This document shows positions 141-38,309 of a stretch of 44,953 bases of DNA, piece after piece. The stretch covers positions 1 to 44,953 of the IMG/VR virus record IMGVR_UViG_3300021255_003103. One strand, given 5' to 3'. The DNA is from a virus. Lineage: Duplodnaviria > Heunggongvirae > Uroviricota > Caudoviricetes. A program made the translations under genes and the position numbers. Within the stretch, counting starts at the first letter, position 1. The number at the start of each line of letters is the position of its first letter. The notes under the pieces were generated by a model. It saw only the letters and a list, made by a program, of their open reading frames with translations. It had not been told where the DNA came from and made no database searches.

Positions 141-3100
141 TTATTGTTCTACCTTAGTCCAACCATAATAACCTAAGTAATAATCTTCAGTATACATCCA
201 TACATTATAGCCACTACTACCACTTGGTACTGTTAATGTACCACCTATTTTTATATTATAGAATGTATAACTTTTTATTGTAGGAGCTGTTATGGCATTT
301 GACACTATACTTGTTAGACTGCTACAACCCCAGAAAGCACTATCGCCAATACTTGTAACACTATTAGGTATAGTTATACTTGTTAAACTGCTACAATCAA
401 CGAAAGCACTTTTACCAATACTTGTGACACTATTACCTATTGTTATACTTGTAAGACCAGTACATTGATAGAAAGCTTTCGTGCCAATACTTGTAACACC
501 ACTTCCAATGGTTGCACTTGTTAAACCACTACAGCCTTGGAAAGCACTACCGCCAATACTTGTAATACTATCAGGTATGACTACGCTTGTTAAACCAGTA
601 CACTGTTGGAAAGCACCAGTTCCAATACTTGTAACACTATTAGGTATAGTTATACTTGTTAAACCAGTACAGTTCATGAAAGCGCCTTGGCCAATGTCTG
701 TAACATTATTACCTAATGTTACACTTGTTAAACTGCTACAATCAACGAAAACACTTTCACCAATACTTGTGACACCACTTCCAATGGTTGCACGTGTTAA
801 ACCACTACAGCCTTGGAAAGCAGTAGTACCAATACTTGTAACACTATCAGGTATATCTATACTTGTTAAACCACTACAGTTATAGAAAGCACCTTGACGA
901 ATACTTGTAACACCATTTGAAATGGTTACACTTGTTAAACTACTACAATCAGCGAAAGCATAATAACCAATACTTGTAACACTATTACCTATGGTTACAC
1001 TTGTTAAACCACTACAGCTACGGAAAGCATAATCGCCAATACTTGGCGTTGAATCGCCTATAACTAGAGTTTCAATGGCAGTAAAACCTGATACTAATGA
1101 AGTTATTATTACTACTTGTGCATTGTAGTTTAACGTTTTAAGACCACTACACCTATTGAAAGCACCATAACCAATACTTGTGACACCACTTCCAATGGTT
1201 GCACTTGTTAAACCACTACAGCCAGCGAAAGCACTTTGACCAATACTTGTAACACTATTAGGTATAGTTATACTTGTTAAACTGCTACAATCAGCGAAAG
1301 TACTATTACCAATACTTGTAACACTATTTGGTATTGTTATACTTGTAAGACTAGTACAATTATAGAAAGCACTACCGCCAATACTTGTAACACTATCAGG
1401 TATAGTTATACTTGTTAAACCACTACAGTCTTGGAAAGCACTACCGTCAATACTTGTAACACTATTAGGTATAGTTATACTTGTTAAACCACTACAGTTA
1501 TAGAAAGCACTTTGACCAATACTTGTAACACTATCAGGTATGACTACGCTTGTTAAACCAGTACAATATTCAAAAGCATAATTACCAATTGATGTTACAC
1601 CATTGCCTATAGTTATACTTCTTAAACTATTACAGTGACTGAAAACACCACTACCAATACTTGTAACACTATCAGGTATGACTACGCTTGTTAAACCAGT
1701 ACACTGTTGGAAAGTATAGTCTCCAATACTTGTAACACCATTACCTATTGTAACATTTGTTAAATTATAACAGTCGTAGAAAGCAGAGATTCCAATACTT
1801 GTAACACTATCTGTTAATGTAAATAAAACAGTATGTTTACCCGCGGTATTAAATGTATATGAATTTGTAACTTCCTGTTCTACGCCGTCTACTTCCATTG
1901 AACTAAACATAGGTGTATCTCCACTACCTGAACCAGAACCAGAGCCAGAACTTCCATGATATAAATTTATTGGATTACTAGTATCAGTAACATTATATTT
2001 ACATAATATTTGGTTTCCTTCTAATACTTGTTCATCAGAACCACTGCCTGAGCCTGAGCCACTACCTGAGCCACTATCTGATTTTTCTACTATTGTCCAA
2101 TTATATTTACCTAAGTAATAATTTCCGGTACTCATCCAAGTATCATAATCAGCGCTACTAGCTGGTACTGTTAATATACCATTTGTCTTCACATTTCTGA
2201 ATGTATTACTTTGTATTGTAGGCGCTGCCATGACGTTAGACACGATACTTGTTAAACTAGTACAATAAGAGAAAGCACTTTCACCAATACTTGTAACACT
2301 ATTAGGTATAGTTATACTTGTTAAACCACTACAGTTATAGAAAGCATAACTACCAATACTTGTAACACCATTACCTATTGTAACACTTGTTAAATTATAA
2401 CACTCGTAGAAAGCAGAGCTTCCAATACTCGTAACACTATCTGGTATAGTTATACTTGTTAAACTAGTACAACCTTGGAAAGCAGCATAATCAATACTTG
2501 TAACACCATTACCTATGGTTATACTTGTTAAATCACTACAATAATAGAAAGCATTATTACCAATACTTGTAACACTATCAGGTATGACTACGCTTGTTAA
2601 ACCTTTACAACTATTGAAAGCATCATTGCCAATGCTTGTAACACTATCTGGTATAGTTATACTTGTTAAACCTTTGCAATCATAGAAAGCATAACTACCA
2701 ATACTTGTAACACTATCTGGTATGACTACGCTTGTTAAACCACTACAACTATTGAAAGCATTATTACCAATTGATGTTACACCATTGCCTATAGTTATAC
2801 TTCTTAAACTATTACAGTAACTGAAAGCACCAGTTCCAATACTTGTAACACCTTTAGATAATATAAATAAAACAGTATGTTCACCTACAGTGTCAAATGT
2901 ATATGTATCTGTAACTTCCTGTTCAACACCATCTACTTCCATTGAGCTAAACATAGGTGTGTCTCCACTACCTGAACCAGAACCAGAACTTACATGATAT
3001 AAATTTATTGGATTACTAGTATCAGTAACATTATATTTACATAATATCTTAATAACTTTAAGATTATAATAAACCTCAGTATTATCGTCTTTGCATATAG

Positions 3101-3188
3101 ATACATTAGGTAAAATCATCTTAGATATATCAGATGTATAAGCTTGATATTCTGATGTTAAGTTAAATAATTTTAAATAAGTTCCCAT
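141..3188 (-). CDS. BspA/TpLRR (LRR_5) leucine-rich repeat protein, two tandem modules
   Basis: 30 repeats of about 23 aa with consensus LTSITIPDSVTSIGxxAFxxCxx (9 in module 1, 21 in module 2); each module has a leader domain and a C-cap ending YYLGxYxWTxVE; Ser-Gly linkers. Confidence 0.92.
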   Translation of the reverse strand: MGTYLKLFNLTSEYQAYTSDISKMILPNVSICKDDNTEVYYNLKVIKILCKYNVTDTSNPINLYHVSSGSGSGSGDTPMFSSMEVDGVEQEVTDTYTFDTVGEHTVLFILSKGVTSIGTGAFSYCNSLRSITIGNGVTSIGNNAFNSCSGLTSVVIPDSVTSIGSYAFYDCKGLTSITIPDSVTSIGNDAFNSCKGLTSVVIPDSVTSIGNNAFYYCSDLTSITIGNGVTSIDYAAFQGCTSLTSITIPDSVTSIGSSAFYECYNLTSVTIGNGVTSIGSYAFYNCSGLTSITIPNSVTSIGESAFSYCTSLTSIVSNVMAAPTIQSNTFRNVKTNGILTVPASSADYDTWMSTGNYYLGKYNWTIVEKSDSGSGSGSGSGSGSDEQVLEGNQILCKYNVTDTSNPINLYHGSSGSGSGSGSGDTPMFSSMEVDGVEQEVTNSYTFNTAGKHTVLFTLTDSVTSIGISAFYDCYNLTNVTIGNGVTSIGDYTFQQCTGLTSVVIPDSVTSIGSGVFSHCNSLRSITIGNGVTSIGNYAFEYCTGLTSVVIPDSVTSIGQSAFYNCSGLTSITIPNSVTSIDGSAFQDCSGLTSITIPDSVTSIGGSAFYNCTSLTSITIPNSVTSIGNSTFADCSSLTSITIPNSVTSIGQSAFAGCSGLTSATIGSGVTSIGYGAFNRCSGLKTLNYNAQVVIITSLVSGFTAIETLVIGDSTPSIGDYAFRSCSGLTSVTIGNSVTSIGYYAFADCSSLTSVTISNGVTSIRQGAFYNCSGLTSIDIPDSVTSIGTTAFQGCSGLTRATIGSGVTSIGESVFVDCSSLTSVTLGNNVTDIGQGAFMNCTGLTSITIPNSVTSIGTGAFQQCTGLTSVVIPDSITSIGGSAFQGCSGLTSATIGSGVTSIGTKAFYQCTGLTSITIGNSVTSIGKSAFVDCSSLTSITIPNSVTSIGDSAFWGCSSLTSIVSNAITAPTIKSYTFYNIKIGGTLTVPSGSSGYNVWMYTEDYYLGYYGWTKVEQ
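1955..2009. repeat. 55-bp exact direct repeat, copy in LRR module 2 leader
   Basis: Identical to 2993-3047 (catgatataaatttattggattactagtatcagtaacattatatttacataatat). Confidence 0.9.
2993..3047. repeat. 55-bp exact direct repeat, copy in LRR module 1 leader
   Basis: Identical to 1955-2009. Confidence 0.9.
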
Positions 3189-3316
3189 TATATATTTGTT
3201 TTTAATTAAAAATAAATAATTAAAAAATATAAGATTTTGTAAATTATATCATATACAATATTATTTACAATTTTATATATAATAATGTCAATTAAAATTT
3301 AATATTTTAAATAATA

Positions 3317-3345
3317 TTTGAATTTTTTTCAAAACATACTATATT
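3317..3345 (+). promoter_or_regulatory. Repeated phage promoter-like motif
   Basis: TTTGAA-N17-TATATT upstream of a plus-strand operon. Confidence 0.7.
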
Positions 3346-3374
3346 TTTATTATAAATCAATAAAATTAATAAAT

Positions 3375-3758
3375 ATGGTAATTTCGACAAGAACAATTCG
3401 AGCAATTCTCAATAAGAAACGTAAAGAAGAGATTGAAGCTAAAAAATGCGAATGCAATAAGGCAGCAGACAAGCTTAAAGCAAAACTTAAGAGTTGGTTA
3501 AAGAAAGAGTTCGGATTTAGTCGATATGATTTCACAATCGGTATTTATACTAGTTGTTCTGAAGATACATATAATGCTTCAAAATATTCAATTAATGTAA
3601 CTTTCTTCAAGGGTGATCCGTACGAAATTGGTAAGAAATTTATGGAGAAGTTTGGAGACTTTAATTTCAAAGGTTTTGAATGTCACAGTAATTGCTCTGG
3701 AAATTATGAAAATCCAGAATGTAAGAATTGGCTTTTTATTGATGTAAAAAATAATTAA
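3375..3758 (+). CDS. Hypothetical protein
   Basis: ORF track start (TTG 3318) lies inside the promoter motif; in-frame ATG 3375 follows an A-rich leader. Confidence 0.75.
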   Translation: MVISTRTIRAILNKKRKEEIEAKKCECNKAADKLKAKLKSWLKKEFGFSRYDFTIGIYTSCSEDTYNASKYSINVTFFKGDPYEIGKKFMEKFGDFNFKGFECHSNCSGNYENPECKNWLFIDVKNN

Positions 3759-3770
3759 AAATCAAACAAT

Positions 3771-4061
3771 ATGAAATATAATATTATAAAAGAACTTCCA
3801 GTCAATTCATTAGATTTTATTTTCAATGAACTTAAGAATGGTGGACTTAAGCTTCTCTATTTTAATGCTCGCGAGAATAATGTGAGTCAAGTAAGTTGGT
3901 TCCCAGAAGACAAAATTGAAATTATTACAGTTGAAGATGATGAAATAGTTGCACAATATTATCCTTCTTTTCCATTTAATTCAGTCGTAGAAATGAAATG
4001 TAGTGGATGTTATTCATTTACAACAACTAATGGTTGGTTTATTGGTCATATTGAAGATTAA
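3771..4061 (+). CDS. Hypothetical protein
   Basis: 96-aa ORF with A-rich leader, operon context. Confidence 0.75.
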   Translation: MKYNIIKELPVNSLDFIFNELKNGGLKLLYFNARENNVSQVSWFPEDKIEIITVEDDEIVAQYYPSFPFNSVVEMKCSGCYSFTTTNGWFIGHIED

Positions 4062-4076
4062 ATTATAAATAAAAAC

Positions 4077-4142
4077 AGTCAGCCAGGGAGACTATAAAAT
4101 TATTCACTGATGAGACCTGGACGAAAATATATTCATACGAAT
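4077..4142 (+). ncRNA. Hammerhead-like ribozyme with pseudoknot, copy 1
   Basis: CUGAUGA 4107-4113, G...C closing pair, GAAA 4123-4126; hairpin AGUC/GACU with loop CCAGG (4083-4087) complementary to CCUGG (4116-4120); AUUC/GAAU candidate stem I. Confidence 0.65.
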
Positions 4143-4172
4143 CCACTTGCTTGCGAAAGTAGGTGGATTTTT
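4140..4172 (+). terminator. Intrinsic terminator fused to ribozyme-like element
   Basis: AATCCACTTGCTT-GCGA-AAGTAGGTGGATT stem with GNRA loop, then T run. Confidence 0.8.
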
Positions 4173-4201
4173 AAAAATTATAAAGATTTTATTTAATTAT
4201 T

Positions 4202-4230
4202 TTTGAATTTTTTATATATTATTCTATTTT
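4202..4230 (+). promoter_or_regulatory. Repeated phage promoter-like motif
   Basis: TTTGAA-N17-TATTTT. Confidence 0.65.
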
Positions 4231-4256
4231 ATTTATATAAATCAAACAAATAAAAT

Positions 4257-4553
4257 ATGATACATTTAATTGATACAAATCTTTTCGCCCATCAGAATCA
4301 AGTAAATTTCAATGGTGAAATACACCATTCAAATTATAATCATAATTACTATACTTCTCAAGGGGGAGTAATTATACTTGAGGAATGCGATGATGATAAT
4401 ACTTTTTATTATTACAATGTAGATCCTAATACTGGTAATACCGAATATTATGGATTAGTTGATTCAATAACTGGAATATTTGATAAGGATTATGATGGTT
4501 TTACTTATAAGAACGATGAAGGTATAATTGAACTTAATTCTAATTTTTGTTAA
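4257..4553 (+). CDS. Hypothetical protein
   Basis: 98-aa ORF downstream of promoter motif. Confidence 0.7.
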   Translation: MIHLIDTNLFAHQNQVNFNGEIHHSNYNHNYYTSQGGVIILEECDDDNTFYYYNVDPNTGNTEYYGLVDSITGIFDKDYDGFTYKNDEGIIELNSNFC

Positions 4554-4556
4554 AAT

Positions 4557-4871
4557 ATGAAACTTATTACAAAAGCAATTGAAAATGAGCTTCTTAAGCA
4601 TCCTTTATATTCAACAGATGGAAAAAATGAGAAAGATGTACTTGTAAAGTTTTTCAATCCATGCGGTATTGGTACCTGGTATGTTTTTGAAGCACAAAAG
4701 AATGGAGATGATTGGACGTTCTTTGGTTTGATAGACCTTTATGAAAAAGATCTTGGATATTTCACACTTGGTGAACTTAAATCAGTAAAGCTTCCATTTG
4801 GACTTTCAATTGAAAGAGATCAATATTTTGAAGGATATAAGTATAATTCAATAACTGGAGTAATTTTTTAA
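4557..4871 (+). CDS. DUF2958 domain protein
   Basis: LYSTDG...VKFFNPCGIGTWYVFE...FFGLIDL.E..LGYFTLGEL..VKLPFGLSIERDQYF. Confidence 0.8.
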   Translation: MKLITKAIENELLKHPLYSTDGKNEKDVLVKFFNPCGIGTWYVFEAQKNGDDWTFFGLIDLYEKDLGYFTLGELKSVKLPFGLSIERDQYFEGYKYNSITGVIF

Positions 4872-4876
4872 GCAAT

Positions 4877-5137
4877 ATGGAATTGAATTACAGAGTTTAC
4901 GACAATAGTTTTTGTATTAACGTTGATACTGGTGTTAGTGCTCTTCTTGTGCAAGAGTATGACATGTTTTATCCATATCGTCCCGACAAAAATGAAGATG
5001 GAGCTGTATTCACTATTTGTTCAAACCCTTATGATAAGTATATTGACATCTATGGTTTGAAGAAGTTTATCAATGTAAAATCATCAAAGACCGGAAATAT
5101 TTATCGAGTATTGTTCAAAGAATCAGCAATATATTAA
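4877..5137 (+). CDS. Hypothetical protein
   Basis: 86-aa ORF, tight packing. Confidence 0.7.
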   Translation: MELNYRVYDNSFCINVDTGVSALLVQEYDMFYPYRPDKNEDGAVFTICSNPYDKYIDIYGLKKFINVKSSKTGNIYRVLFKESAIY

Positions 5138-5140
5138 ATT

Positions 5141-5524
5141 ATGACAAAGAAATTAAATGAAGTGAAAGTAGGAGATACATTATATTGTATTGACTATAAA
5201 AATGATTGTATTGTTCCATTAACAGTTGCAGAACATATTACTAATGGACCAGACGTTAGTCGTAAAATATATTCGAGGGAAGCAATTAGAATTAAAGAGA
5301 AAGTTCCTTGTACACCGGAAGCTGAAGGTGAGTTCGTTATTGATCAATTTTATCGTGGTGATGAATGCGCAACATGTAAATATGGAATTTTTACAACTTA
5401 TAATGAAGCTAAAAAAGAATTAATAAAACAAATAAAAGATAATATTGATTATGTAGATAAAGAGATGGTTAATTTAAATAATCAAAAAATTCATCTATAT
5501 GATTGCCTTAATAAATTAAAATAA
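5141..5524 (+). CDS. Hypothetical protein with C-terminal coiled coil
   Basis: 127-aa ORF; VKVGDTLY start and heptad-rich end. Confidence 0.75.
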   Translation: MTKKLNEVKVGDTLYCIDYKNDCIVPLTVAEHITNGPDVSRKIYSREAIRIKEKVPCTPEAEGEFVIDQFYRGDECATCKYGIFTTYNEAKKELIKQIKDNIDYVDKEMVNLNNQKIHLYDCLNKLK

Positions 5525-7648: not shown

Positions 7649-8160
7649 ATGCAAAATTTAAACCAGGAGATATTATAAGATCAAATAAAGATAATGAAAG
7701 AATATTTTATATTTTAAATTCAAAATATAAAACATATGTTGATACGTCAGACCGTTATGATGAGACATATGAATATTATAATTATCAATGTTATGATTTA
7801 ATAAATAATGAAGAAATAATTATTACTAGTTATGACGATAGTTCATATGATATTATTATGCATCGTTTTATATTTGAAGATATAAAACCATTTATGCAAG
7901 TATTAGTGTATGATATAACTTTTAATAAATGGATTGCCGATATTATATCTTCTTGGGGTCCTTGGGATATACATACAATTGGTCATGGTGAATTTTATTA
8001 TAAAGAAGTAGTACCTTATAATGATAATACAAAATATTTAATTAATACATCGGAGAAACAACATAAGTATCATAACTTTTCTCAAATAGATGAAGTAAAA
8101 GAATATTTTAAGAATAATGATTTAACAAATGATAATATATATAAAAAATTAAGTGTATGA
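7645..8160 (+). CDS. Hypothetical protein (motif recalled from Bacteroidales phage proteins)
   Basis: IKPFMQVLVYD...W...VPYNDNTKYLINT; ATGA overlaps on both sides. Confidence 0.7.
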   Translation: MNAKFKPGDIIRSNKDNERIFYILNSKYKTYVDTSDRYDETYEYYNYQCYDLINNEEIIITSYDDSSYDIIMHRFIFEDIKPFMQVLVYDITFNKWIADIISSWGPWDIHTIGHGEFYYKEVVPYNDNTKYLINTSEKQHKYHNFSQIDEVKEYFKNNDLTNDNIYKKLSV

Positions 8161-8963
8161 ATGGAATTATTGGAGCAGTCATAGGATCTAGTATTGGTCT
8201 TTCCTATGAAATCAAAAAAACTAAAGATTATAATTTTAATATGATTTATGACAAGGCTAATCCATCTGATGATTCAGTCGCTATTATAGCCACTGCTGAT
8301 TGGCTGATGAATACAAATCATACAAAAGATGAATATATTGATAAACTTCATTATTGGTGCAATAAATATAATTATGGAATGTATAATTATGGTAATGCAA
8401 CAAAATTTAAAGAATGGGTATCAAATAAGGAACGTGAACCATATAACTCATTTGGAAATGGCTCAGCAATGAGAGTTATTCCTGTTGGTTGGTGGGCATG
8501 TTCACTTGAACAAGCCTTAAAGTTTGCAAAGATAACTGCTGAAGTAACTCATAATCATCCTGAAGGAATTAAAGGTGCACAAGCAGTTGCAGGCGCAATT
8601 TGGGCAATTCGTAATGGTTATACAAAGGACGATATTAAAGAATGGCTTGAACATGAATGCAAATATAACTTAAATATATCTTACGATACATTAAAGAAAA
8701 ATCATAAATTTGAATGTACATGTCAAAATTCAGTTCCTGCTTCATTTATTTGTTGGTACAATTCAACATCATATGAAGATTGTGTTCGTAAAGCAGTAAG
8801 TCTAGGAGGTGATGCAGATACTGAAGCTGCAATTGCTGGTGCTTTCGCAGCAGCAGATAAGAATACCACAATTCCTGAAGAATTAACTAATGATGTAACA
8901 AGATTCTTTTCAATGGACTTTATGGAAGTATTAAACAAGTTTCACAAACAATTTGAAGTATAA
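8157..8963 (+). CDS. ADP-ribosylglycohydrolase (DraG/ARH family)
   Basis: SDDS, SFGNGSAMR, THNHPEG, GGDADT motifs. Confidence 0.9.
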   Translation: MNGIIGAVIGSSIGLSYEIKKTKDYNFNMIYDKANPSDDSVAIIATADWLMNTNHTKDEYIDKLHYWCNKYNYGMYNYGNATKFKEWVSNKEREPYNSFGNGSAMRVIPVGWWACSLEQALKFAKITAEVTHNHPEGIKGAQAVAGAIWAIRNGYTKDDIKEWLEHECKYNLNISYDTLKKNHKFECTCQNSVPASFICWYNSTSYEDCVRKAVSLGGDADTEAAIAGAFAAADKNTTIPEELTNDVTRFFSMDFMEVLNKFHKQFEV

Positions 8964-9403: not shown

Positions 9404-11353
9404 ATGAGCAACAAAGTATTTGGTATTGACCTGGGAACAGGAAATTCATGTGTCGCTATTATTGAAGGTAGACAAGCTAAAGTTATTGCAAACGCAGAAG
9501 GTTCTCGTACTACACCATCTGTAGTTTTTATTAAAGGCGATGAACGTAAAATTGGAGGTTCCGCTAAACGTGGTATGATTATGAATCCTAAGAACACAGT
9601 ATCTTTTATTAAGAGATTTATGGGTGCTGAATGGCAAGATGCTGATGTTCAAAAGATGTTAACTATGATTACATATGAAGTAGTTAACAAGAACAATAAA
9701 CCTTATGTTAGAATTGAAGGCAAAGATTATTCTGCTGAAGAGATTTCTTCATATATCTTAGCAGACCTTGCAAAGGTTGCTTCAGATTATTATGGAGAGG
9801 AAGTAAAAGATTGTGTTATCACAGTTCCTGCATGGTTTAATGATGTTCAACGTAAAGCAACAAAACTTGCCGGTGAACTTGCTGGTTTGACAGTACATCG
9901 TATTATTAATGAACCAACTGCAGCTATTCTTGCAGCAGGTATGGATAAAGAAGATAAAGAACGTCTTGTACTTGTAAACGACCTTGGTTGTGGTACTGAG
10001 GATGTATCTATATGTGAAGTATCTCAAGGAATGGTTGAAGTACTTGCATCAGATGGTGACGTATTCCTTGGTGGTCAAAACTATGATAATGAAATTGTAA
10101 ATTGGCTTGCTGAAGAATTTATGAAGGATCATGCAAATGTAGATCTTCGTAAGGATCCTATGGCATATGCTCGTCTTGTTGAAGCTGCTGAAAAGGCAAA
10201 GTGTGAATTGTCAACATCAACAGCAACAGAGATTAATCTTCCATATATTACTGTTATGGATGGTGTTCCTCAAATGTTGGTTACAACACTTACACGTGCA
10301 AAGTTTGAACAAATGACAAAGAAGTTTACAGATAAGGTTGTTGAAATTGCAAAGCGTGCACTTGAAAAGGCAAAGAAGACACCTGCAGATATTACTGATA
10401 TTCTTCTTGTTGGTGGTTCATCTCGTATGCCACAAGTTCAAGAGGCTCTTAAGAATGCAATTGGTGATAAGTTAAATAAATCATCAAACTATGATGAAGC
10501 TGTTGCACTTGGTGCTGCAATTCAAGCAAAGGCAATTGTTAATCCTGAGGAATCAGATACATTACTTCTTGATGTAACTCCAATTACATTAGGTATTGAG
10601 GTTAATGGTAATCAAATGGGTAAGCTTATTGAAGCAAATACAACAATTCCTGCTAAGAAATCACAGACATTTACAACTGCTGTAGATAATCAGCCTGGTG
10701 TATCAATTGTTGTTCTTCAGGGTGAACGTCCTATGAGTCGTGACAATAAAGTAATTGGTACATTCCAGCTTGACGGTATTATGCCAGCTCCACGTGGTGT
10801 TCCTCAAATTGAAGTAACATTTGATATTGATGCTAATGGTACTCTTACAGTAACAGCTATGGATAAAGCAACAAATAAAGAACAGCATATTACAATTTCT
10901 GATTCTAATGCACTTTCACAGGAAGAAATTGATAGAATTAAGAAAGAGGCTGAGGAGCATAAAGCTGAAGATGAAGCTAAGAAAGCTGAGTTTGATAAGA
11001 AAAATGATGCTGAAGGATATATTTATTCTGTTGAACGTTCATTAAATGACGATAAGCTTAAGGATAAGTTTACTGATGATGAAAGAAAACAACTTGAAGA
11101 TATCGTGAATACAGCTAAGAAAGCAATAGAAGAAAAGAATGATAACGAGTTATATGCAAAGAAGAATGAGTTAGAAAAAGTTTATAATCCAATTATAACT
11201 CGTATATATCAGGAGAACATGCCAAAGGATGCTAATGGTAATCCACAAGTAGATCCTAATCAATTTACAAATATGTTTGGTGGTCAAGGTGGTCAAAATC
11301 CATTTGGAGGTAATCCATTCCAAGCAGGTGCTCCTTTCCAAGAAACAAAATAA
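9404..11353 (+). CDS. dnaK: Hsp70 chaperone DnaK
   Basis: GIDLGT.NS, EGSRTTPS, VITVPAWFND.QR.ATK.AG, IINEPTAA, LVGGSSRMP, DEAVALGAAIQ, TFTTAVDNQPGV, PAPRGVPQIEVTFDIDANG; full 649 aa. Confidence 0.97.
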   Translation: MSNKVFGIDLGTGNSCVAIIEGRQAKVIANAEGSRTTPSVVFIKGDERKIGGSAKRGMIMNPKNTVSFIKRFMGAEWQDADVQKMLTMITYEVVNKNNKPYVRIEGKDYSAEEISSYILADLAKVASDYYGEEVKDCVITVPAWFNDVQRKATKLAGELAGLTVHRIINEPTAAILAAGMDKEDKERLVLVNDLGCGTEDVSICEVSQGMVEVLASDGDVFLGGQNYDNEIVNWLAEEFMKDHANVDLRKDPMAYARLVEAAEKAKCELSTSTATEINLPYITVMDGVPQMLVTTLTRAKFEQMTKKFTDKVVEIAKRALEKAKKTPADITDILLVGGSSRMPQVQEALKNAIGDKLNKSSNYDEAVALGAAIQAKAIVNPEESDTLLLDVTPITLGIEVNGNQMGKLIEANTTIPAKKSQTFTTAVDNQPGVSIVVLQGERPMSRDNKVIGTFQLDGIMPAPRGVPQIEVTFDIDANGTLTVTAMDKATNKEQHITISDSNALSQEEIDRIKKEAEEHKAEDEAKKAEFDKKNDAEGYIYSVERSLNDDKLKDKFTDDERKQLEDIVNTAKKAIEEKNDNELYAKKNELEKVYNPIITRIYQENMPKDANGNPQVDPNQFTNMFGGQGGQNPFGGNPFQAGAPFQETK

Positions 11354-12668: not shown

Positions 12669-13754
12669 ATGAATAAAAATTTATATGAAATACTTGGTGT
12701 AAGTCAAAATGCAACATTAGATGAAATAAAAAAGGCTTACAAAAAATTAGCGGTTAAATGGCATCCCGATAGACAAGGTGGTAAATCAGATAAAGAAAAA
12801 AAGGAAGCTGAAGATAAATTTAAAGAAATAGGTGCAGCTTATGCTATATTATCTGATGAAAACAAACGCGCAAAATATGATAGATTTGGTACTGTTGATG
12901 ATGATATGATGAATGGTACTGGGTTTAATTTTGATGATTTATTTAAAAATGTCATGGGTGGTGGATTTGATATATTTGGTGATATTTTTGGAAATAGACA
13001 TCAACAAAGAGAATCATATCCATATGAAGCACAATCAATTCAAGTTCACATACCACTATCAATTGAAGACATATTCAATGGATATGATCATGAAATCGAA
13101 TATATGATAGAAAAACGTTGTACAAGCTGTAATGGTACTGGTGGTACTAATGTTGAAACATGTCCACACTGTCACGGAACAGGTGTTATTGTAAAAACAC
13201 AACGTTCTGGTTTTGGTATTATACAACAGCAATCACAATGTCCATATTGTAATGGAACTGGTAAAATTATAAAAAATAAATGCTCTACTTGTAATGGTAC
13301 AGGTCTAATTAAAGCAAAACAAAAATGCAAAGTAACTTTTAAACCAGGAGTTAAAAATGATTATTATCAAATTTATTATGGTTATGGATGTGAAGGTAAA
13401 GATTCTCGTACAAAAAATGGTAATTTAATTGCTATAGCAAAATATGCATTTGATACATTAAAATACCAAATTATTGATAATACAGTTTATGAATTAATTG
13501 AAATACCTTATTATAATTGTATTTTAGGAACTGAAATTAAACATAAAATTCCAAGTGGTAAAGAAGTAATTGTTAAGATTCCTCCTTATTCTAAAGATGG
13601 TACACAAGTTGTTTTAGAAAATGAAGGACTTAAATTACCTACTAAATATGGACGTAGTAAATATATATTTATTATTAAGCCTAAGTTACCAACATATATT
13701 AAGTCAGAAGAAAAAGAAATATTAGAAAAAGTTAAGAAGATAAATGAACATTGA
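12669..13754 (+). CDS. dnaJ: Class A J-domain co-chaperone DnaJ
   Basis: J-domain with HPD, G/F-rich region, four CxxCxGxG zinc-finger repeats, C-terminal domains. Confidence 0.95.
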   Translation: MNKNLYEILGVSQNATLDEIKKAYKKLAVKWHPDRQGGKSDKEKKEAEDKFKEIGAAYAILSDENKRAKYDRFGTVDDDMMNGTGFNFDDLFKNVMGGGFDIFGDIFGNRHQQRESYPYEAQSIQVHIPLSIEDIFNGYDHEIEYMIEKRCTSCNGTGGTNVETCPHCHGTGVIVKTQRSGFGIIQQQSQCPYCNGTGKIIKNKCSTCNGTGLIKAKQKCKVTFKPGVKNDYYQIYYGYGCEGKDSRTKNGNLIAIAKYAFDTLKYQIIDNTVYELIEIPYYNCILGTEIKHKIPSGKEVIVKIPPYSKDGTQVVLENEGLKLPTKYGRSKYIFIIKPKLPTYIKSEEKEILEKVKKINEH

Positions 13755-14400: not shown

Positions 14401-14428
14401 TTTTAAACAATTTAATTTTTATATTATA

Positions 14429-14457
14429 TTTGAAAATTTTAATGAAATTACTATATT
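14429..14457 (+). promoter_or_regulatory. Repeated phage promoter-like motif
   Basis: TTTGAA-N17-TATATT. Confidence 0.7.
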
Positions 14458-14506
14458 TATAATATAAATTAAATATGATGTATTACAAAATTTACTTTTA
14501 AACATT

Positions 14507-16098: not shown

Positions 16099-16134
16099 AT
16101 TTTATGTTAAATATTAAATAATTTTTTATTAAAA

Positions 16135-16163
16135 ATTGAATTTTAAATAAAAATTTCTATATT
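16135..16163 (+). promoter_or_regulatory. Repeated phage promoter-like motif
   Basis: ATTGAA-N17-TATATT. Confidence 0.65.
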
Positions 16164-16195
16164 ATTTATATATTAATCAAACAAATAAATAATTT

Positions 16196-17591: not shown

Positions 17592-19040
17592 ATGAGTAAA
17601 TTGAATTCCACAAAGAAGAGTACTACTTTGAAAGTAAATCAAGTAGCTGTTGGTGAAATTGCAGGCGGTGTATCTTGTGCTGTTGCTGCACAGTCAAATA
17701 TACAATTGCTTCGTAGAGCAGTTCTTGCTAACTTGCTTTGGGAGAATATTGCATATATGAATGGGAAGAAGGTTACAGATGAGATTGCTCGTCTTATTCC
17801 TCTTTGTGATCCTATGGATGTAGCAAACCTTACAATTGAGGCACGCACTATACAGAAGCTTCGTCATACACCTTTGTTCCTTGCAGTTCAAATGTGTAAG
17901 CATGATGCAACTCGCCCTTATGTTAAGGAAGTACTTCCAAAAATCATAACTCGTGCAGATATGTTAACTGACTTTATGGCACTTTATTGGATGGACGGTA
18001 AGTGTCCAATCTGTAATGCAGCAAAGCAAGGTTTGCGTGAAGCATTCCATAACTTCAATGAATACAAGTTTGCAAAGTATGATCGTGATGCAGAAATCAA
18101 ACTTCGTGACGTAATGTTTATGGTACGTCCAAAGCCAGCAAATCAACTTGAGGCAGTTCTTTACAAGAAGATTGCTGACCGTACACTTGAGACTCCAGAG
18201 ACATGGGAGGTATTGCTTTCAAAGGCACATACTTCAGCTGAGAAGGCCGCAGTTTGGGAGAAACTTATCAATGAGGGTAAGATTGGCGGTAAGGCAATGC
18301 TTATGAACCTTCGTAACATGCAATCTGCTGGTGTTCCACGCCCAACAATTGTAAAGGGTCTTAACGAGCTTAAAGGCGCAATGTTACTTCCACTTGACTT
18401 CTTGAAGGCAATGCGCGAAAGTAACGGTCTTGACCGTGAACTTGAGGATGCAATGTTGAATACTTACAAGAGCCTTCCAAAGCTTCCAGGTAAGACATTG
18501 TTCATTGTTGATGTATCTGGTTCTATGGGATCACTTACAAGCTCTGGATCAAAATTCTCAAGACTTGATATTGCATGTAGTCTTGCAATGATATGTGCAA
18601 ATAAATGTGAAGATTTTGAGCTTGTATGTACTGCGGGTGATGACGGTCGTCGTATAGAGAGTCAAGTACGTATCAAGTACCCAAGCAAGGGATTCAACTT
18701 GTTTAAAGAAATTGCAGCATCTCGCGATACTGTAGGTAATGGTGGTATCTTTACATATCAGTGTATTGAAAAGCTTCGTAAGCAACTTGGAAATAAGATA
18801 CATGATTATGCTCGTATAATTGTGTTCTCAGACTCACAGGATATTGATGTATGCTATGGTTCATTAAATAAACCACGTCCATTTGGTAAGTATAATTATA
18901 TTTGTGATGTATCTTGTAATACCAAAGGTATTAATTATAAAGGTGTATGGACGGCAGAGATTTCTGGTTGGTCTGAACATATGCTTGATTTTATAGAAGC
19001 TTTTGAAAATATTAACCAAACACCTTTAATTGAAGAATAA
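17592..19040 (+). CDS. TROVE + vWA domain protein (Ro60/Rsr family)
   Basis: LRHTPLFL, RADMLTDF, FNEYKFAKY, LRDVMFMVRPKP, PETWE, AMLMNLRN; MIDAS IVDVSGSM and IIVFSDSQ. Confidence 0.9.
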   Translation: MSKLNSTKKSTTLKVNQVAVGEIAGGVSCAVAAQSNIQLLRRAVLANLLWENIAYMNGKKVTDEIARLIPLCDPMDVANLTIEARTIQKLRHTPLFLAVQMCKHDATRPYVKEVLPKIITRADMLTDFMALYWMDGKCPICNAAKQGLREAFHNFNEYKFAKYDRDAEIKLRDVMFMVRPKPANQLEAVLYKKIADRTLETPETWEVLLSKAHTSAEKAAVWEKLINEGKIGGKAMLMNLRNMQSAGVPRPTIVKGLNELKGAMLLPLDFLKAMRESNGLDRELEDAMLNTYKSLPKLPGKTLFIVDVSGSMGSLTSSGSKFSRLDIACSLAMICANKCEDFELVCTAGDDGRRIESQVRIKYPSKGFNLFKEIAASRDTVGNGGIFTYQCIEKLRKQLGNKIHDYARIIVFSDSQDIDVCYGSLNKPRPFGKYNYICDVSCNTKGINYKGVWTAEISGWSEHMLDFIEAFENINQTPLIEE

Positions 19041-20918: not shown

Positions 20919-20999
20919 TAATTATAAAGACTATACTTTATTAAAAATAAATAAAAATAGAAATAATTAACATTTATTAACTTTATAATTAAGATAAAA

Positions 21000-21028
21000 A
21001 TTGAATAATATATAAAAAATACTATATT
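21000..21028 (+). promoter_or_regulatory. Repeated phage promoter-like motif
   Basis: ATTGAA-N17-TATATT-TTAA-TTG. Confidence 0.7.
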
Positions 21029-21050
21029 TTAATTGTAATAAATAAATTAA

Positions 21051-22006: not shown

Positions 22007-22069
22007 TAGTAATTCCTATAAAAAATTCATTTTTTCATATTATATTTGAATTTTTTATAGGAATTACTA
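22007..22069. repeat. Perfect 23-bp inverted repeat with 17-nt spacer
   Basis: TAGTAATTCCTATAAAAAATTCA (22007-22029) / TGAATTTTTTATAGGAATTACTA (22047-22069). Confidence 0.9.
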
Positions 22070-22073
22070 TATT
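22045..22073 (+). promoter_or_regulatory. Repeated phage promoter-like motif
   Basis: TTTGAA-N17-TATATT-TATA-TTG. Confidence 0.7.
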
Positions 22074-22102
22074 TATATTGTAAATCAAAACAAATAAAGA
22101 AT

Positions 22103-22474
22103 ATGACTGAAAATAAGAACAAAGGATTTCGCGATGTAATGGTTGGTGATAAGCTTTACTATGCTAATTTGGAAGCTTACGGCATTTATGAATGCCGAGT
22201 AATATCTATTGAATTGGATGAAAATGCTTTATGCGACATGGATCACCGCGTACCTGATGTTATTTTCAAAACTAACGAATTGAAAGATTTCAGTATTAAT
22301 AAAGGTTGTCTTTTACATTTTGATACTAAAGTATTAATTAATGAAGATGGTGTGTACATCAGTCCATCACGTTATGCATTAGCTACTGCTATTGTCAAAG
22401 CTATAGATGAGAAACTTAATTATTGGAATCTCAAAAAGAGTCGTATTCTGAATGCTTATTATAATGCTGACTAA
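22103..22474 (+). CDS. Hypothetical protein
   Basis: 123-aa ORF. Confidence 0.75.
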   Translation: MTENKNKGFRDVMVGDKLYYANLEAYGIYECRVISIELDENALCDMDHRVPDVIFKTNELKDFSINKGCLLHFDTKVLINEDGVYISPSRYALATAIVKAIDEKLNYWNLKKSRILNAYYNAD

Positions 22475-30662: not shown

Positions 30663-30881
30663 ATGAGTATATTTAATAAACGTCGTAAGATTGTTCGCAA
30701 AAAACTAGAAGAACAACATAAGCAGTGGGAAGAAAATTTTAAAATACAAAACAAGTCTATGCAATTATTAATTGATACTGCTAAATATATAGATGAACAT
30801 CATCCTGAATATGAATCTTTAAGTGAAGAAGAAAGAGTAAAGTTATTTGTAAAAATATATGAAGAATTATCTAAAAAATGA
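30663..30881 (+). CDS. Hypothetical protein
   Basis: 72-aa ORF. Confidence 0.7.
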   Translation: MSIFNKRRKIVRKKLEEQHKQWEENFKIQNKSMQLLIDTAKYIDEHHPEYESLSEEERVKLFVKIYEELSKK

Positions 30882-31807
30882 TACTTAGTATAGATTTTAG
30901 AACAGATATTCCTGCATTTTATTCTGAATGGTTAATAAATAGGTTTAATGAAGGATATGTATATTTTCGTAATCCTGCATATCCACAAACAATACATAAG
31001 ATAATTTTAGATAAGCAACACATAGAGGGTATTATGTGGTGTTCAAAAGATTATTTACCTATTCTTCATGACTTAAAAAGTATTACAGATAAATTTCCAA
31101 GTATATTTCATTATACAATAACAGGATATGGTAAAGACATTGAACCAAATGTTCCAAATTTGGAACAATCTATTTATACCTTCAAAGAACTTTCTCAAAG
31201 ATATGGAAAAGAAAAAGTAATTTGGAGATTTGACCCTATCTTTTATTGTAAAGATTTTGGAGAAACAGAAACATTAAGAAGATTTGAAAATATATGTAAA
31301 GAGTTACATGATTATACAGATAGAGTTGTAGTTAATTTTGTATCTCCGTATGAAAAAGTAAAAAGACATTTACCTGAAATGGTTACAATGCAGTCATTAA
31401 TGAAGAAGATTCTTTTATTGAATATGTATGGTATTTGCCAAAAATATGATTTTAAATTACAAACTTGCGGCAATGGATTACAGTTTAAAGATTTGCAAGG
31501 TATTGAAGTTACAGGTTGTCTTGATGAGCACGCTTTGAATTTAATTGGAATATATCCTAAACCAAAAAATAAAGCGACAGAATGGGGATGTTTATGTTAT
31601 CCAAATACTTGTATAGGAGAATATAATACTTGTCTTCATAAATGTAAATATTGTTATGCATCTGCTGATTTTGATAAATGTGATGAGAATTTCAAAAAAC
31701 ACGATCCTAAATCTCCATTATTGATAGGATGGCCACGTGGTGATGAACAAATAATTGAAATGAAACCAAAGCTTCTTAATACAAAACAATTGAAATTAAA
31801 TTTTTAA
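30878..31807 (+). CDS. DUF1848 family protein (radical-SAM-like Cys motif at C-terminus)
   Basis: RTDIPAFYSEW...G.V..RNP, YTITGYGKDIEPNVP, IWRFDPI, IGEYNTCLHKCKYCYA. Confidence 0.88.
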   Translation: MILSIDFRTDIPAFYSEWLINRFNEGYVYFRNPAYPQTIHKIILDKQHIEGIMWCSKDYLPILHDLKSITDKFPSIFHYTITGYGKDIEPNVPNLEQSIYTFKELSQRYGKEKVIWRFDPIFYCKDFGETETLRRFENICKELHDYTDRVVVNFVSPYEKVKRHLPEMVTMQSLMKKILLLNMYGICQKYDFKLQTCGNGLQFKDLQGIEVTGCLDEHALNLIGIYPKPKNKATEWGCLCYPNTCIGEYNTCLHKCKYCYASADFDKCDENFKKHDPKSPLLIGWPRGDEQIIEMKPKLLNTKQLKLNF

Positions 31808-31882
31808 TTTCATATATTATTTTTATTTCATTTATAATATGGTATTTCATATGAAATTTTAATTTATAAAAATTAAATAATA

Positions 31883-31918
31883 TTTAAATTTTTTATTATG
31901 AGTACTATATTATATTTG
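31883..31918 (+). promoter_or_regulatory. Repeated phage promoter-like motif
   Basis: TTTAAA-N17-TATATT-ATAT-TTG. Confidence 0.6.
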
Positions 31919-31949
31919 TAATTAAAATAAATAATTAAATAATAAAGCT

Positions 31950-32420: not shown

Positions 32421-32448
32421 ATAGAAAAGGTATAATTTTTAAATAATA

Positions 32449-32484
32449 TTTGAATTTTTAATTATAAGTACTATATTATATTTG
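32449..32484 (+). promoter_or_regulatory. Repeated phage promoter-like motif
   Basis: TTTGAA-N17-TATATT-ATAT-TTG. Confidence 0.7.
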
Positions 32485-32501
32485 TAATTAAATTGAATGA
32501 T

Positions 32502-36712: not shown

Positions 36713-36720
36713 TAATAATA

Positions 36721-37243: not shown

Positions 37244-38095
37244 ATGGGAAAACAAAAACGTAGTCCAAACACTTATCAGAAGATTAACACAATCTTTATG
37301 CGTGATGCAAAAAATGTAATCATGCCTTATGATGGTTTTACAGAACCAGAATTTGAATATCTCCGTGGATTGAAATGGCGTGGAGAGGAAAAAATTGATG
37401 GAAGTTGTATGCGTATTGAAGTAACTAAAGCTGAAGTTTGGGATGATCCAATGGAGCCAAGCAAACTTGAAGGTGTAGAATTTGCTGTACGTATTGCTGG
37501 AAAGACCGATAACGCACAGATTCCTCCAAAGCTCAAGAAGTTTATGGAAGAAAATTATCCAGATGAAAAGGTTTTTGCCGCTCTTGGACTTAAAAAATTT
37601 ATTCCAGTAGAAGAGTGGGTAGAACATAAGTGGGTAACATCTGATGGTATTACACCAAGTTATGATGCTATTCCAGAAATCTACACTATTTATGGTGAAG
37701 GCTATGGTGCTGGTATTCAGAAAGCTGGTGGAAATTATATTTCTAATGGTGTAGGATTCATTGTGTTTGATGTAAAGGTAAATGACATTTATTTGCTTAC
37801 AAGTGCACGTGATGAAATTGCTACAAAGCTTGGTGCTCCTATTGTTCCATTTATGGGATATTTTACCCTTGATGAGGCTATTGATTTTGTCCGTAAGGGA
37901 TTTATTTCAACAATTTCTGAGAACAGAGAATACATGGCAGAAGGTCTTGTTCTTCGTACTGATTTAGGTCTTCGTAACCGTATGGGTAAGAGACTTATTG
38001 TAAAAATAAAGTATGAAGATTTCCAAAAGTACCGTGCAGTTTATGGTACTGATGAAAAGGTTGACCAGCCTAAGAATGAAAATTATTCACGATAA
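37244..38095 (+). CDS. ATP-dependent RNA ligase (Rnl2-like nucleotidyltransferase domain)
   Basis: YQKINT; motif I EKIDG; motif III IYGEGYG; IIIa FIVFDV; IV EGLVLR; V IVKIK. Confidence 0.88.
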   Translation: MGKQKRSPNTYQKINTIFMRDAKNVIMPYDGFTEPEFEYLRGLKWRGEEKIDGSCMRIEVTKAEVWDDPMEPSKLEGVEFAVRIAGKTDNAQIPPKLKKFMEENYPDEKVFAALGLKKFIPVEEWVEHKWVTSDGITPSYDAIPEIYTIYGEGYGAGIQKAGGNYISNGVGFIVFDVKVNDIYLLTSARDEIATKLGAPIVPFMGYFTLDEAIDFVRKGFISTISENREYMAEGLVLRTDLGLRNRMGKRLIVKIKYEDFQKYRAVYGTDEKVDQPKNENYSR

Positions 38096-38161
38096 AGTCA
38101 GCCAGGGAGACTATAAAATCATTCTCTGATGAGACCTGGACGAAAATATATCCCTCTGAAT
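38096..38161 (+). ncRNA. Hammerhead-like ribozyme with pseudoknot, copy 2
   Basis: CUGAUGA 38126-38132, GAAA 38142-38145, CCAGG 38102-38106 with CCUGG 38135-38139; starts at the base after the ligase TAA. Confidence 0.65.
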
Positions 38162-38192
38162 CCACTCGCTTGTGAAAGTAGGTGGATTTTTT
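38159..38192 (+). terminator. Intrinsic terminator fused to ribozyme-like element
   Basis: AATCCACTCGCTT-GTGA-AAGTAGGTGGATT then T run. Confidence 0.8.
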
Positions 38193-38239: not shown

Positions 38240-38268
38240 TTTGAATATTATTTATTTTTTACTATATT
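38240..38268 (+). promoter_or_regulatory. Repeated phage promoter-like motif
   Basis: TTTGAA-N17-TATATT-AATA-TTG. Confidence 0.7.
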
Positions 38269-38309
38269 AATATTGTAAATAAAATTAGTAAACAATAAAA
38301 ATTTAAAAT

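What the first reader, a model, noticed from the sequence alone, without database searches (positions are those of the whole stretch)
4077..4172. Duplicated 96-nt cassette: pseudoknotted hammerhead-like ribozyme fused to a terminator
Seen: 4077-4172 and 38096-38191 match at 88 of 96 nt. All 8 differences avoid CUGAUGA, GAAA, the AGUC/GACU hairpin and the CCAGG/CCUGG complementary pair, and the terminator loop stays GNRA (GCGA vs GUGA). Known: CUGAnGA-stem II-GAAA is the hammerhead catalytic core, and pseudoknot-containing hammerhead variants exist. Inference: stem II is reduced to a G-C pair plus a 5-bp pseudoknot. Stems I and III are very short and I cannot assign them uniquely; one assignment cuts after UA 4137 / UC 38156. 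The candidate stem I strand (GAAU) overlaps the base of the terminator stem, so folding may be coupled to termination. Both copies sit just after a stop codon at the end of a transcription unit, suggesting a reusable 3'-end processing module that leaves a 2',3'-cyclic-phosphate mRNA end and releases a short 5'-OH hairpin RNA.
Basis: partly seen in the sequence, partly recalled or inferred. Interest (0 to 1): 0.82.

Follow-up and report, generated by a model that had tools for sequence, protein, structure and literature searches.

The report
Stripped-down pseudoknot hammerhead fused to terminator
Two copies of a known self-cutting RNA type (the pseudoknot or RAGATH-1 hammerhead) sit at the ends of two phage transcription units, but the half that normally holds the cut site is replaced by a short linker and a widely conserved terminator hairpin, so whether they still cut is open.

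Summary
The repeat is real: 4077-4172 and 38096-38191 match at 88 of 96 nt, and there are only these two copies in the window. Both hit Rfam RF03152 (RAGATH-1, the pseudoknot hammerhead) at E about 1e-7 to 1e-8, scoring 49.3 and 53.2 bits against a cut-off of 56.3. They are the only Rfam hits in the 45 kb.

It comprises a 5' hairpin, a 5-bp pseudoknot to the stem II loop, a one-pair stem II and a full catalytic core. Across 38 relatives 99% of these pairs form, with many compensatory changes.

I found 33 distinct relatives with the same unusual build. They carry the enzyme half of the ribozyme, 11-13 variable pyrimidine-rich nt, NAAU, then a hairpin with an invariant 16-nt top and a U tract. 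This subfamily has no helix III. The candidate 4-5 bp helix I does not covary. Yet the enzyme half is almost invariant, and only the free core position N7 changes.

The family is known, with a crystal structure published in 2024. The truncated terminator-fused form, and the sequence-conserved terminator cap found on over 100 phage contigs, appear undescribed. Self-cleavage is plausible but unsupported. Two other first-stage notes of this scan flagged the same motif after RNA ligase genes elsewhere.

The parts
3771..4061 (+). Upstream ORF of copy A (96 aa, no Pfam or PHROG match); stop codon ends at 4061
4077..4093 (+). Copy A helix IV hairpin: AGUC 4077-4080 pairs with GACU 4090-4093; the loop 4081-4089 holds the pseudoknot strand CCAGG 4083-4087
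   Evidence: Rfam alignment; covariation in relatives
4094..4100 (+). Copy A linker AUAAAAU. The same letters in the crystallised pseudoknot hammerhead form a minor-groove triplex with helix IV.
   Evidence: PMC11300833
4101..4106 (+). Copy A strand X (UAUUCA), in the position of the 5' strand of helix I; AUUC can pair with GAAU 4139-4142
4107..4126 (+). Copy A catalytic core: CUGAUGA 4107-4113, G4114-C4122 single stem II pair, loop with CCUGG 4116-4120 (pseudoknot partner), GAAA 4123-4126
4127..4138 (+). Copy A linker Y (AUAUAUUCAUAC). It lies where helix III and the cut site should be. Candidate cuts are after C4134 (A-A-UAUA-U-U-C mini helix III) or after A4137 (AUA|C next to GAAU).
   Evidence: inference
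4139..4172 (+). Copy A hairpin T: 14-pair stem, GCGA loop, invariant top UUGCUUGNGAAAGUAG 4147-4162, then a U tract to 4172; intrinsic-terminator shape, -18 kcal/mol
4202..4256 (+). Promoter-like repeat (TTTGAAT ... TAT-rich box) before the next ORF (ATG 4257)
   Evidence: D9, D11
37244..38095 (+). Upstream gene of copy B: RNA ligase (PF09414, phrog_548)
38096..38112 (+). Copy B helix IV hairpin (38096-38099 with 38109-38112) with pseudoknot strand CCAGG 38102-38106
38113..38125 (+). Copy B linker AUAAAAU and strand X (CAUUCU)
38126..38145 (+). Copy B catalytic core: CUGAUGA, G-C pair, CCUGG 38135-38139, GAAA 38142-38145
38146..38157 (+). Copy B linker Y (AUAUAUCCCUCU). Candidate cuts are near 38152/38153 or after C38156 (CUC|U). 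This version can also pair with UCAG..AGGGA of helix IV and the pseudoknot strand.
38158..38192 (+). Copy B hairpin T (one C.A mismatch, GUGA loop) and U tract
38240..38309 (+). Promoter-like repeat before the next ORF (ATG 38310)
   Evidence: D11

Best explanation
Each cassette is a reusable 3'-end module for a phage transcription unit and has three parts.

(1) The enzyme half of a pseudoknot-type (RAGATH-1) hammerhead ribozyme. It comprises the helix IV hairpin, the AUAAAA linker, a 5-bp pseudoknot that stands in for stem II, and the full CUGAUGA...GAAA core. This identification is near certain (about 0.95).

(2) A stripped-down substrate side. Helix III is reduced to one or two A-U pairs. 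A UH or NUH site lies in a short pyrimidine-rich linker. The candidate helix I is at most 4-5 bp (AUUC with GAAU) and overlaps the foot of the next hairpin.

(3) A hairpin with a sequence-conserved top followed by a U tract, which ends transcription before the next promoter. This role is inferred from its shape and position.

The most likely working, which is inferred and not shown: the RNA still acts as a ribozyme and cuts between the core and the terminator hairpin, after C4134 or A4137 in copy A and about 38152-38156 in copy B. That would detach the hairpin as a 5'-OH RNA and leave the message with a 2',3'-cyclic phosphate end capped by the compact pseudoknot fold. The cut would be slow or conditional, needing a partner copy or a helper, because the helices that hold the substrate are so weak. 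I put about 0.35-0.45 on any such cleavage near the cassette.
For: Rfam RF03152 matches both copies end to end over the enzyme half, at 49.3 and 53.2 bits and E 1.3e-7 and 1.9e-8. They are the only hits at E<=0.05 in 45 kb.

Helix IV and the pseudoknot form in 99.2% of cells across 38 relatives. There are 34 two-sided changes, no shuffle of 500 reaches this, and slid controls pair at 21-41%.

The letters match the crystallised pseudoknot hammerhead strand, including UAUAAAAU and CUGAUGAGAC..GGACGAAA (PMC11300833).

There are 33 distinct cassettes of the same build. Helix IV plus loop is identical in 30 of 32. The core is identical in 26 of 32, four more differ only at the free position N7, and one has G8U. 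By contrast, the strand before the core has 14 variants and the linker 20. That pattern fits selection on a working core.

An NUH triplet sits just before NAAU in 24 of 33. Both window copies pair 4 of 5 positions in the candidate helix I.

The module follows at least 8 different genes and is followed by promoter-like repeats. Hairpin T folds at -18 and -14.5 kcal/mol, and only on the + strand.
Against: Both copies score below Rfam's gathering cut-off, because the helix III and helix I part does not fit.

Candidate helix I pairs 2.97 of 5 positions on average, the same as when strands are shuffled among sequences (2.95). So it shows no covariation, and sub-types c and d cannot form it at all.

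Canonical relatives show clean cis sites with 11-15 paired positions 11-76 nt after GAAA. The terminator-fused forms show none within 400 nt on either side.

If the cut is placed after the mini helix III (UUC), helix I is displaced by 3-5 nt. If it is placed next to GAAU, helix III is a single pair. Neither layout is known to be active as a monomer.

Part of the conservation is imposed by my search patterns: GACGAAA and the hairpin top were required, and the core.
Confidence: 0.45

Rival explanations
1. The cassette is an exapted or decaying hammerhead that no longer cuts. Repeated deletions fused the enzyme half to the terminator hairpin. The compact pseudoknot-triplex fold is kept for another reason, such as shielding the 3' end from exonucleases, helping termination, or binding a protein together with hairpin T.
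For: There is no helix III and no covarying helix I. Sub-type d looks like the first hammerhead of tandem loci cut off after the first 7-9 nt of its helix III strand and joined to T. One member carries G8U in the core (L184). Hairpin T exists on its own at many terminators.
Against: Core residues that matter only for catalysis or junction folding stay fixed, while flanking strands 6-12 nt long show 14-20 variants. The one core position that varies is the one known to be free, N7. A pure relic should decay evenly.
Confidence: 0.3
2. It is a dimer-dependent minimal hammerhead. The letters right after GAA (A-A-UAUA-U-U-C in the commonest type) form a 2-bp helix III with a palindromic loop. This resembles the minimal hammerheads of Penelope-like elements and newt or avocado sunblotch viroid RNAs. 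Two cassette RNAs would pair through an 8-bp joint helix III and cut after UUC (after C4134).
For: AAUAUAUU is a perfect 8-nt palindrome in copy A and in most type-a relatives. Short palindromic helix III with dimeric cleavage is documented (PMC4209133; PMC6765202). Cassettes often occur twice per genome or in tandem (this window; L019, L020, L151, L153, L154, L172). The other types also have a U-H 5-9 nt after GAA.
Against: Copy B, L188 and L183 break the palindrome without compensation, and types b and c are not palindromic. After this site no helix I can form, because 3-5 unpaired pyrimidines intervene. Two related partial records hold only one copy each.
Confidence: 0.1
3. It is an enzyme-only hammerhead acting in trans, or on a distant site of the same transcript. 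The strand before CUGAUGA and the first bases after GAAA would be guide arms, and hairpin T the 3' stabiliser of a 3'-UTR-derived small RNA.
For: The crystallised pseudoknot hammerhead works as a separate enzyme strand with 5-bp and 8-bp arms. The arms vary between sub-types while the enzyme half is fixed.
Against: No target scores above chance in the window. The best score is 13 for copy A, which 28% of shuffled-arm controls reach, and 11-12 for copy B. Two related records gave no exact target and only a weak excess of near-matches. The host genome and the rest of the phage could not be searched.
Confidence: 0.12
4. It is a chance resemblance, or another RNA class (pistol, fluoride riboswitch) or a DNA-level repeat.
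For: The pistol ribozyme has the same secondary-structure layout.
Against: No Rfam family other than RF03152 matches at E<=0.05. The core word is found twice against 0.00 expected. Wobble pairs and the strand asymmetry of folding point to an RNA on the + strand.
Confidence: 0.02

Closest known systems
Pseudoknot (RAGATH-1) hammerhead ribozyme, Rfam RF03152. Weinberg et al. 2015, as cited in PMC11300833; crystal structure PDB 8YDC, Zhan et al. 2024, PMC11300833.
   Same: It has the 5' helix IV hairpin, whose loop pairs with the loop that replaces stem II. It also has the AUAAAA linker, a single G-C stem II pair, the CUGAUGA and GAAA core, and type I strand order. The sequence of the enzyme half is nearly identical.
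   Different: Canonical members have a 3-9 bp helix III hairpin, then UC, then a 5-bp helix I. Here helix III is missing or 1-2 bp, helix I is at most 4-5 bp and does not covary, and a conserved terminator hairpin follows directly. The scores fall 3-7 bits under the family cut-off.
Minimal or short-helix-III hammerheads that cut as dimers: Penelope-like elements, newt satellite, avocado sunblotch viroid (PMC4209133; PMC6765202; Forster et al. 1988 as cited there)
   Same: Helix III is 1-2 bp with a small palindromic loop right after GAAA, and helix I is short. The monomer is expected to be weakly active.
   Different: Those are eukaryotic or viroid type I motifs with a long stem II and tandem copies. 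Here stem II is a pseudoknot, the setting is a phage 3' UTR, the palindrome is not kept in all members, and helix I is not adjacent to that site.
Bacterial and phage hammerheads that flank single genes (Perreault et al. 2011, PMC3088659)
   Same: They are intergenic, sit at gene ends, are sometimes several per operon, and often have pseudoknot tertiary contacts.
   Different: Those are complete ribozymes shown to cut in vitro and in vivo. None is described there as fused to a terminator with its substrate helices lost.
Intrinsic (Rho-independent) terminators
   Same: There is a stable GC-containing hairpin with a GNRA loop, a U tract, and a position between a stop codon and the next promoter.
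   Different: The top 16 nt are conserved in sequence across more than 100 unrelated positions while the lower stem varies freely. Some copies have no U tract and sit just before tRNA genes.

Membership tests
RAGATH-1 / pseudoknot hammerhead (RF03152) | Covariance-model score at or above the curated gathering score (56.3 bits) | tested here: not met
   49.3 bits (4076-4137) and 53.2 bits (38095-38161), at E 1.3e-7 and 1.9e-8. The first hammerhead of tandem relatives reaches 57.4.
RAGATH-1 / pseudoknot hammerhead (RF03152) | 5' hairpin (helix IV) whose loop forms a pseudoknot with the loop in place of stem II | tested here: met
   AGUC/GACU and CCAGG/CCUGG in both copies. Across 38 relatives 99.2% of cells pair, 5 pairs change on both sides, and no shuffle of 500 reaches this.
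RAGATH-1 / pseudoknot hammerhead (RF03152) | AUAAAA linker between helix IV and helix I | tested here: met
   UAUAAAAU at 4093-4100 and 38112-38119, identical to the crystallised construct.
Hammerhead ribozyme (any type) | Conserved core C3-U4-G5-A6-N7-G8-A9, G10.1-C11.1, G12-A13-A14 | tested here: met
   CUGAUGAG...CGAAA is exact in both copies. In 32 relatives only N7 varies, plus one G8U.
Hammerhead ribozyme (any type) | Helix III closed by A15.1-U16.1 and followed by H17 at the cut site | tested here: not met
   Only 1-2 A-U pairs are possible (A4126-U4133 and A4127-U4132, or A4126-U4136). Infernal aligns 0-9 unpaired nt where the family has a hairpin. No cis partner exists within 400 nt.
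Hammerhead ribozyme (any type) | Helix I flanking the cut site, maintained by covariation | tested here: inconclusive
   4 of 5 positions pair in both window copies (AUUC/GAAU). Across 33 relatives the mean is 2.97 of 5, against 2.95 after shuffling, and sub-types c and d cannot pair.
Hammerhead ribozyme (any type) | Site-specific self-cleavage giving 2',3'-cyclic phosphate and 5'-OH ends | not testable with these tools
Pistol ribozyme / fluoride riboswitch | Match to the Rfam models | tested here: not met
   No hit at E<=10 on either cassette.
Intrinsic terminator | Stable hairpin directly followed by a U tract, downstream of a stop codon | tested here: met
   -18 and -14.5 kcal/mol, z -5.9 and -5.0, with 5-6 U following. 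Whether transcription actually ends there was not tested.

The most novel reading that the evidence does not exclude
A natural hammerhead lineage may have dispensed with helix III and a fixed helix I yet still be under selection as a catalyst. It could cut as a new minimal architecture in which the conserved hairpin T or a partner RNA supplies the missing scaffold. Or it could be a naturally trans-acting ribozyme carried in the 3' UTR of megaphage genes, most often the RNA ligase gene. Hairpin T would then be a separate, undescribed sequence-specific RNA signal of Bacteroidota phages.
Probability: 0.2. Interest if true: 0.75.

Novelty: new variant of a known kind. Interest (0 to 1): 0.5.

Why it matters
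The pseudoknot hammerhead is reported as more active under standard conditions than other hammerheads, and it has a solved structure. A natural lineage that keeps its enzyme half under selection while losing the usual substrate helices poses a clear question. It would either reveal how little scaffold this ribozyme needs, or be a case of a ribozyme fold reused for another job.

The setting is also of interest. The module is a portable 3'-end unit, most often behind an RNA ligase gene, in large phages that also carry Ro60-like and chaperone genes. That setting invites a test of whether ribozyme-made RNA ends and phage RNA-repair enzymes are linked.

The terminator cap is conserved letter for letter on more than 100 phage contigs. 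It is a second, independent lead: a probable protein or processing signal hidden in what looks like an ordinary terminator.

If the cassettes do not cut, the finding is a modest addition to a known family.

Tried and rejected
(1) DNA search of the phage collection with window 3000-5500 found no match. No whole genome is held for the window.

(2) A cis substrate elsewhere: I scanned 400 nt on each side of every cassette for U-H sites flanked by complements of both arms. Canonical relatives were recovered and terminator-fused ones were not. The one good upstream match (L183, 8+4 bp) is not shared by relatives in the same gene context.

(3) Trans targets in the window and in two related records did not exceed shuffled-arm or reversed-pattern controls.

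(4) Hairpin T as helix III with the cut in or after the U tract: Infernal chooses this for L172 and L181, but the bases after the U tract do not match strand X in the window copies or most relatives.

(5) A type III layout with the cut site upstream of helix IV: the partial matches come from the conserved coding end of the ligase gene and do not covary.

(6) Pairing of the linker with the purine-rich helix IV and pseudoknot strand as a switch: it is strong in copy B and about 10 relatives (dG -8 to -11, z -2 to -3.4) but absent in copy A (-0.4) and in types b and c. It is therefore not a general feature.

(7) Pistol, fluoride and all other Rfam families gave no match. There are no tRNA genes in the window.

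(9) Weinberg et al. 2015 and Lunse et al. 2016 are not held in the library. I rely on how PMC11300833, PMC5737381 and PMC6765202 cite them.

Full report
OBSERVATION

The two stretches 4077-4172 and 38096-38191 align without gaps at 88 of 96 positions, and similarity ends at both cassette borders (family D12). The eight differences fall in three places. Two lie in the strand just before CUGAUGA (4101, 4106). Four lie in the linker after GAAA (4133, 4135, 4137, 4138). Two lie in the hairpin (4148, 4154). The 20-nt core word occurs exactly twice in 45 kb, against 0.00 expected.

Copy A begins 15 nt after the stop codon of a 96-aa ORF of unknown family. Copy B abuts the stop codon of an RNA ligase gene (PF09414, phrog_548). 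Each is followed by a member of the window's promoter-like repeat family (D8/D9/D11). From my own knowledge, TTTG followed by a TAnnTTTG-like box resembles Bacteroidota promoters. Both cassettes fold much better on the + strand than on the complement.

WHAT IT IS

Rfam's RAGATH-1 hammerhead model (RF03152) matches both copies over its full length. The scores are 49.3 and 53.2 bits, at E 1.3e-7 and 1.9e-8 on the local search. These are the only Rfam matches at E<=0.05 in the whole window. Both lie just under the gathering score of 56.3, so the default search is blank.

The model is a type I hammerhead. It has a 5' hairpin whose loop pairs with the loop that replaces stem II. The hairpin is called helix IV in the crystal-structure paper. 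After it come an AUAAAA linker, the 5' strand of helix I and CUGAUGA. Then come one G-C pair, GAAA, a helix III hairpin, UC, and the 3' strand of helix I.

The family was found by Breaker and co-workers. A 2.9 A structure (PDB 8YDC) shows the pseudoknot taking the place of helix II and the linker lying in the minor groove of helix IV (PMC11300833). The crystallised enzyme strand and the window copies share UAUAAAAU and CUGAUGAGAC..GGACGAAA almost letter for letter.

I collected relatives by pattern scans of IMG/VR and JGI metagenome contigs and aligned 38 distinct 5' domains. In that set, 99.2% of cells in helix IV, the pseudoknot and the single stem II pair are standard pairs. Five pairs change on both sides (34 cells). 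No shuffle of 500 reaches this, and sliding the partner drops pairing to 21-41%.

WHAT IS UNUSUAL

The relatives fall into two groups.

- Canonical members have a 4-9 bp helix III hairpin, then UC or UA, then a 4-7 bp helix I. A simple scan recovers these sites 11-76 nt after GAAA with 11-15 paired positions.
- The window copies belong to a second group of 33 distinct sequences. In these, GAAA is followed by 11-13 variable, pyrimidine-rich nt, then NAAU, then directly by a hairpin I call T and a U tract.

In this second group no site with both helices exists within 400 nt on either side. Two placements of the cut are conceivable.

Helix I is then AUUC/GAAU plus an optional fifth pair, but helix III is a single A-U pair closing a 9-10 nt loop.
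- Right after GAA, where most members read A-A-UAUA-U-U-C or A-U-A-U-C. Helix III is then 1-2 bp with a small, often palindromic loop. This resembles the dimer-dependent minimal hammerheads of Penelope-like elements (PMC4209133; PMC6765202). Helix I, however, is then 3-5 nt out of register.

Comparative data do not rescue either layout. The candidate helix I pairs 2.97 of 5 positions on average, against 2.95 after shuffling strands among sequences. Sub-types c and d cannot form it at all. The palindrome is broken without compensation in copy B, L188 and L183. An NUH triplet does stand before NAAU in 24 of 33.

THE ENZYME HALF IS NOT DECAYING

Helix IV with its loop is identical in 30 of 32 sequences. 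The 20-nt core is identical in 26. Four more differ only at N7, the one core position known to be free, and one has G8U. By contrast, the 6-7 nt before the core have 14 variants and the linker has 20. L151 carries a fully compensated pseudoknot change (CCCGG/CCGGG).

There is a caveat. GACGAAA and the top of T were required by the metagenome pattern, and the core by the IMG/VR pattern. Only the conservation of helix IV, the pseudoknot strand and CUGAnGAG in the set is free of that bias.

I read this as selection on a folded and probably catalytic core whose substrate contacts are unconventional, conditional or supplied in trans. Searches for trans targets found nothing above chance in the window or in two related records. 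The rest of this phage and its host could not be searched.

THE TERMINATOR

Hairpin T (4139-4172 and 38158-38192; -18 and -14.5 kcal/mol) has the shape and position of an intrinsic terminator. Its top 16 nt, UUGCUUGNGAAAGUAG, includes U.G and G.U wobbles that would be mismatches on the other strand.

That top recurs on more than 100 phage contigs. Of 137 distinct matches, 104 continue into a lower stem of 4-11 bp, with 51 different lower-stem sequences. At random control positions only 2.8% do so. Of the 104, 72 are followed by a U tract.

T occurs without any hammerhead in most cases, and in some loci it sits 5-6 nt before a tRNA gene with no U tract. It also occurs in Bacteroidales, Prevotella and Segatella genome records; 36 of 120 matches there form the hairpin. 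Rfam has no family for it. Within the window, T occurs only in the two cassettes; the other terminators are generic. Why a terminator cap should be conserved in sequence is unexplained. A protein-binding or processing signal is my guess.

CONTEXT

The cassette follows at least 8 different genes in relatives. Its commonest host is the RNA ligase gene, in at least 14 of 33 sequences, including copy B. Two other first-stage notes of this scan (e1-5432805, e1-5440575) flagged the same motif after RNA ligase genes in other genomes. That link may be simple synteny among related phages.

Several relatives carry two hammerheads in tandem, the first scoring above Rfam's cut-off and the second being the terminator-fused form. 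The window also encodes Hsp70, DnaJ, a TROVE/Ro60-like protein, an ADP-ribosylglycohydrolase and a BspA-type repeat protein. This gene content suggests to me a large phage. Related contigs reach 150-435 kb.

VERDICT

The identification as a pseudoknot hammerhead is supported and belongs to a known, structurally solved family.

The proposed role as a self-cleaving 3'-end processing module is plausible but not supported by comparative evidence. I put about 0.35-0.45 on cleavage within or next to the cassette. Within that I count a monomer cut next to GAAU or after UUC as one reading. A dimer-dependent cut (0.1) and trans action (0.12) are separate rivals. I put about 0.3 on a non-cutting exapted or decaying fold.

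Two things appear undescribed in the literature I could search. One is the terminator-fused subfamily without helix III. The other is the sequence-conserved hairpin cap. I class the finding as a new variant of a known kind, of moderate interest.

Noticed in passing
window 4147-4162 and 38166-38181; loci L039-L148 and L193-L312: The top of the terminator hairpin, UUGCUUGNGAAAGUAG, is conserved letter for letter on more than 100 phage contigs and in Bacteroidales, Prevotella and Segatella genome records. The lower stems differ and stay paired. Most copies have a U tract, but some sit 5-6 nt before a tRNA gene with none. It is not in Rfam.
   Followed up: partly
L020 2366-2537, L154 993-1159, L172 964-1145 (also L169, L187): Tandem pairs of pseudoknot hammerheads. 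The first has a real helix III and scores at or above Rfam's cut-off. The second is the terminator-fused form and starts right where the first one's helix I ends.
   Followed up: partly
window 38146-38157 with 38098-38108: Copy B's linker (CCCUCUGA) can pair with UCAG..AGGGA of helix IV and the pseudoknot strand. The resulting fold is as stable as the ribozyme fold (both -26.6 kcal/mol). Copy A's linker cannot do this (duplex -0.4 kcal/mol).
   Followed up: partly
window 141-3188 (- strand): A 1015-aa BspA-type leucine-rich-repeat protein built from about 25 tandem 69-nt (23-aa) repeats.
   Followed up: no
window 3294-3377, 14406-14489, 16115-16172, 20980-21037, 22022-22105, 31860-31943, 32426-32509, 36701-36758: A family of promoter-like repeats (ATATTTGAAT, about 20 nt, TACTATATT..TTTGTA) in front of transcription units. 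From memory it resembles the Bacteroidota -33 TTTG and -7 TAnnTTTG promoter.
   Followed up: no
window 9404-11353, 12669-13754, 17592-19040, 8157-8963, 30878-31807: Phage-borne Hsp70 and DnaJ genes, a TROVE (Ro60-like) plus VWA protein, an ADP-ribosylglycohydrolase and a DUF1848 protein. No Y-RNA-like Rfam hit lies near the TROVE gene.
   Followed up: no
window 38078-38089 and 4096-4107: The 3' end of the RNA ligase gene upstream of copy B reads AAAAUUAUUCAC. These are the same 12 letters as the linker plus helix I strand of copy A. This may be chance in AT-rich DNA or a recombination footprint.
   Followed up: no
window 34530-34603 and 35660-35733: A 74-nt stretch at 74% identity shared by two neighbouring ORFs (34193-34792 and 35254-35799), suggesting paralogous genes.
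   Followed up: no
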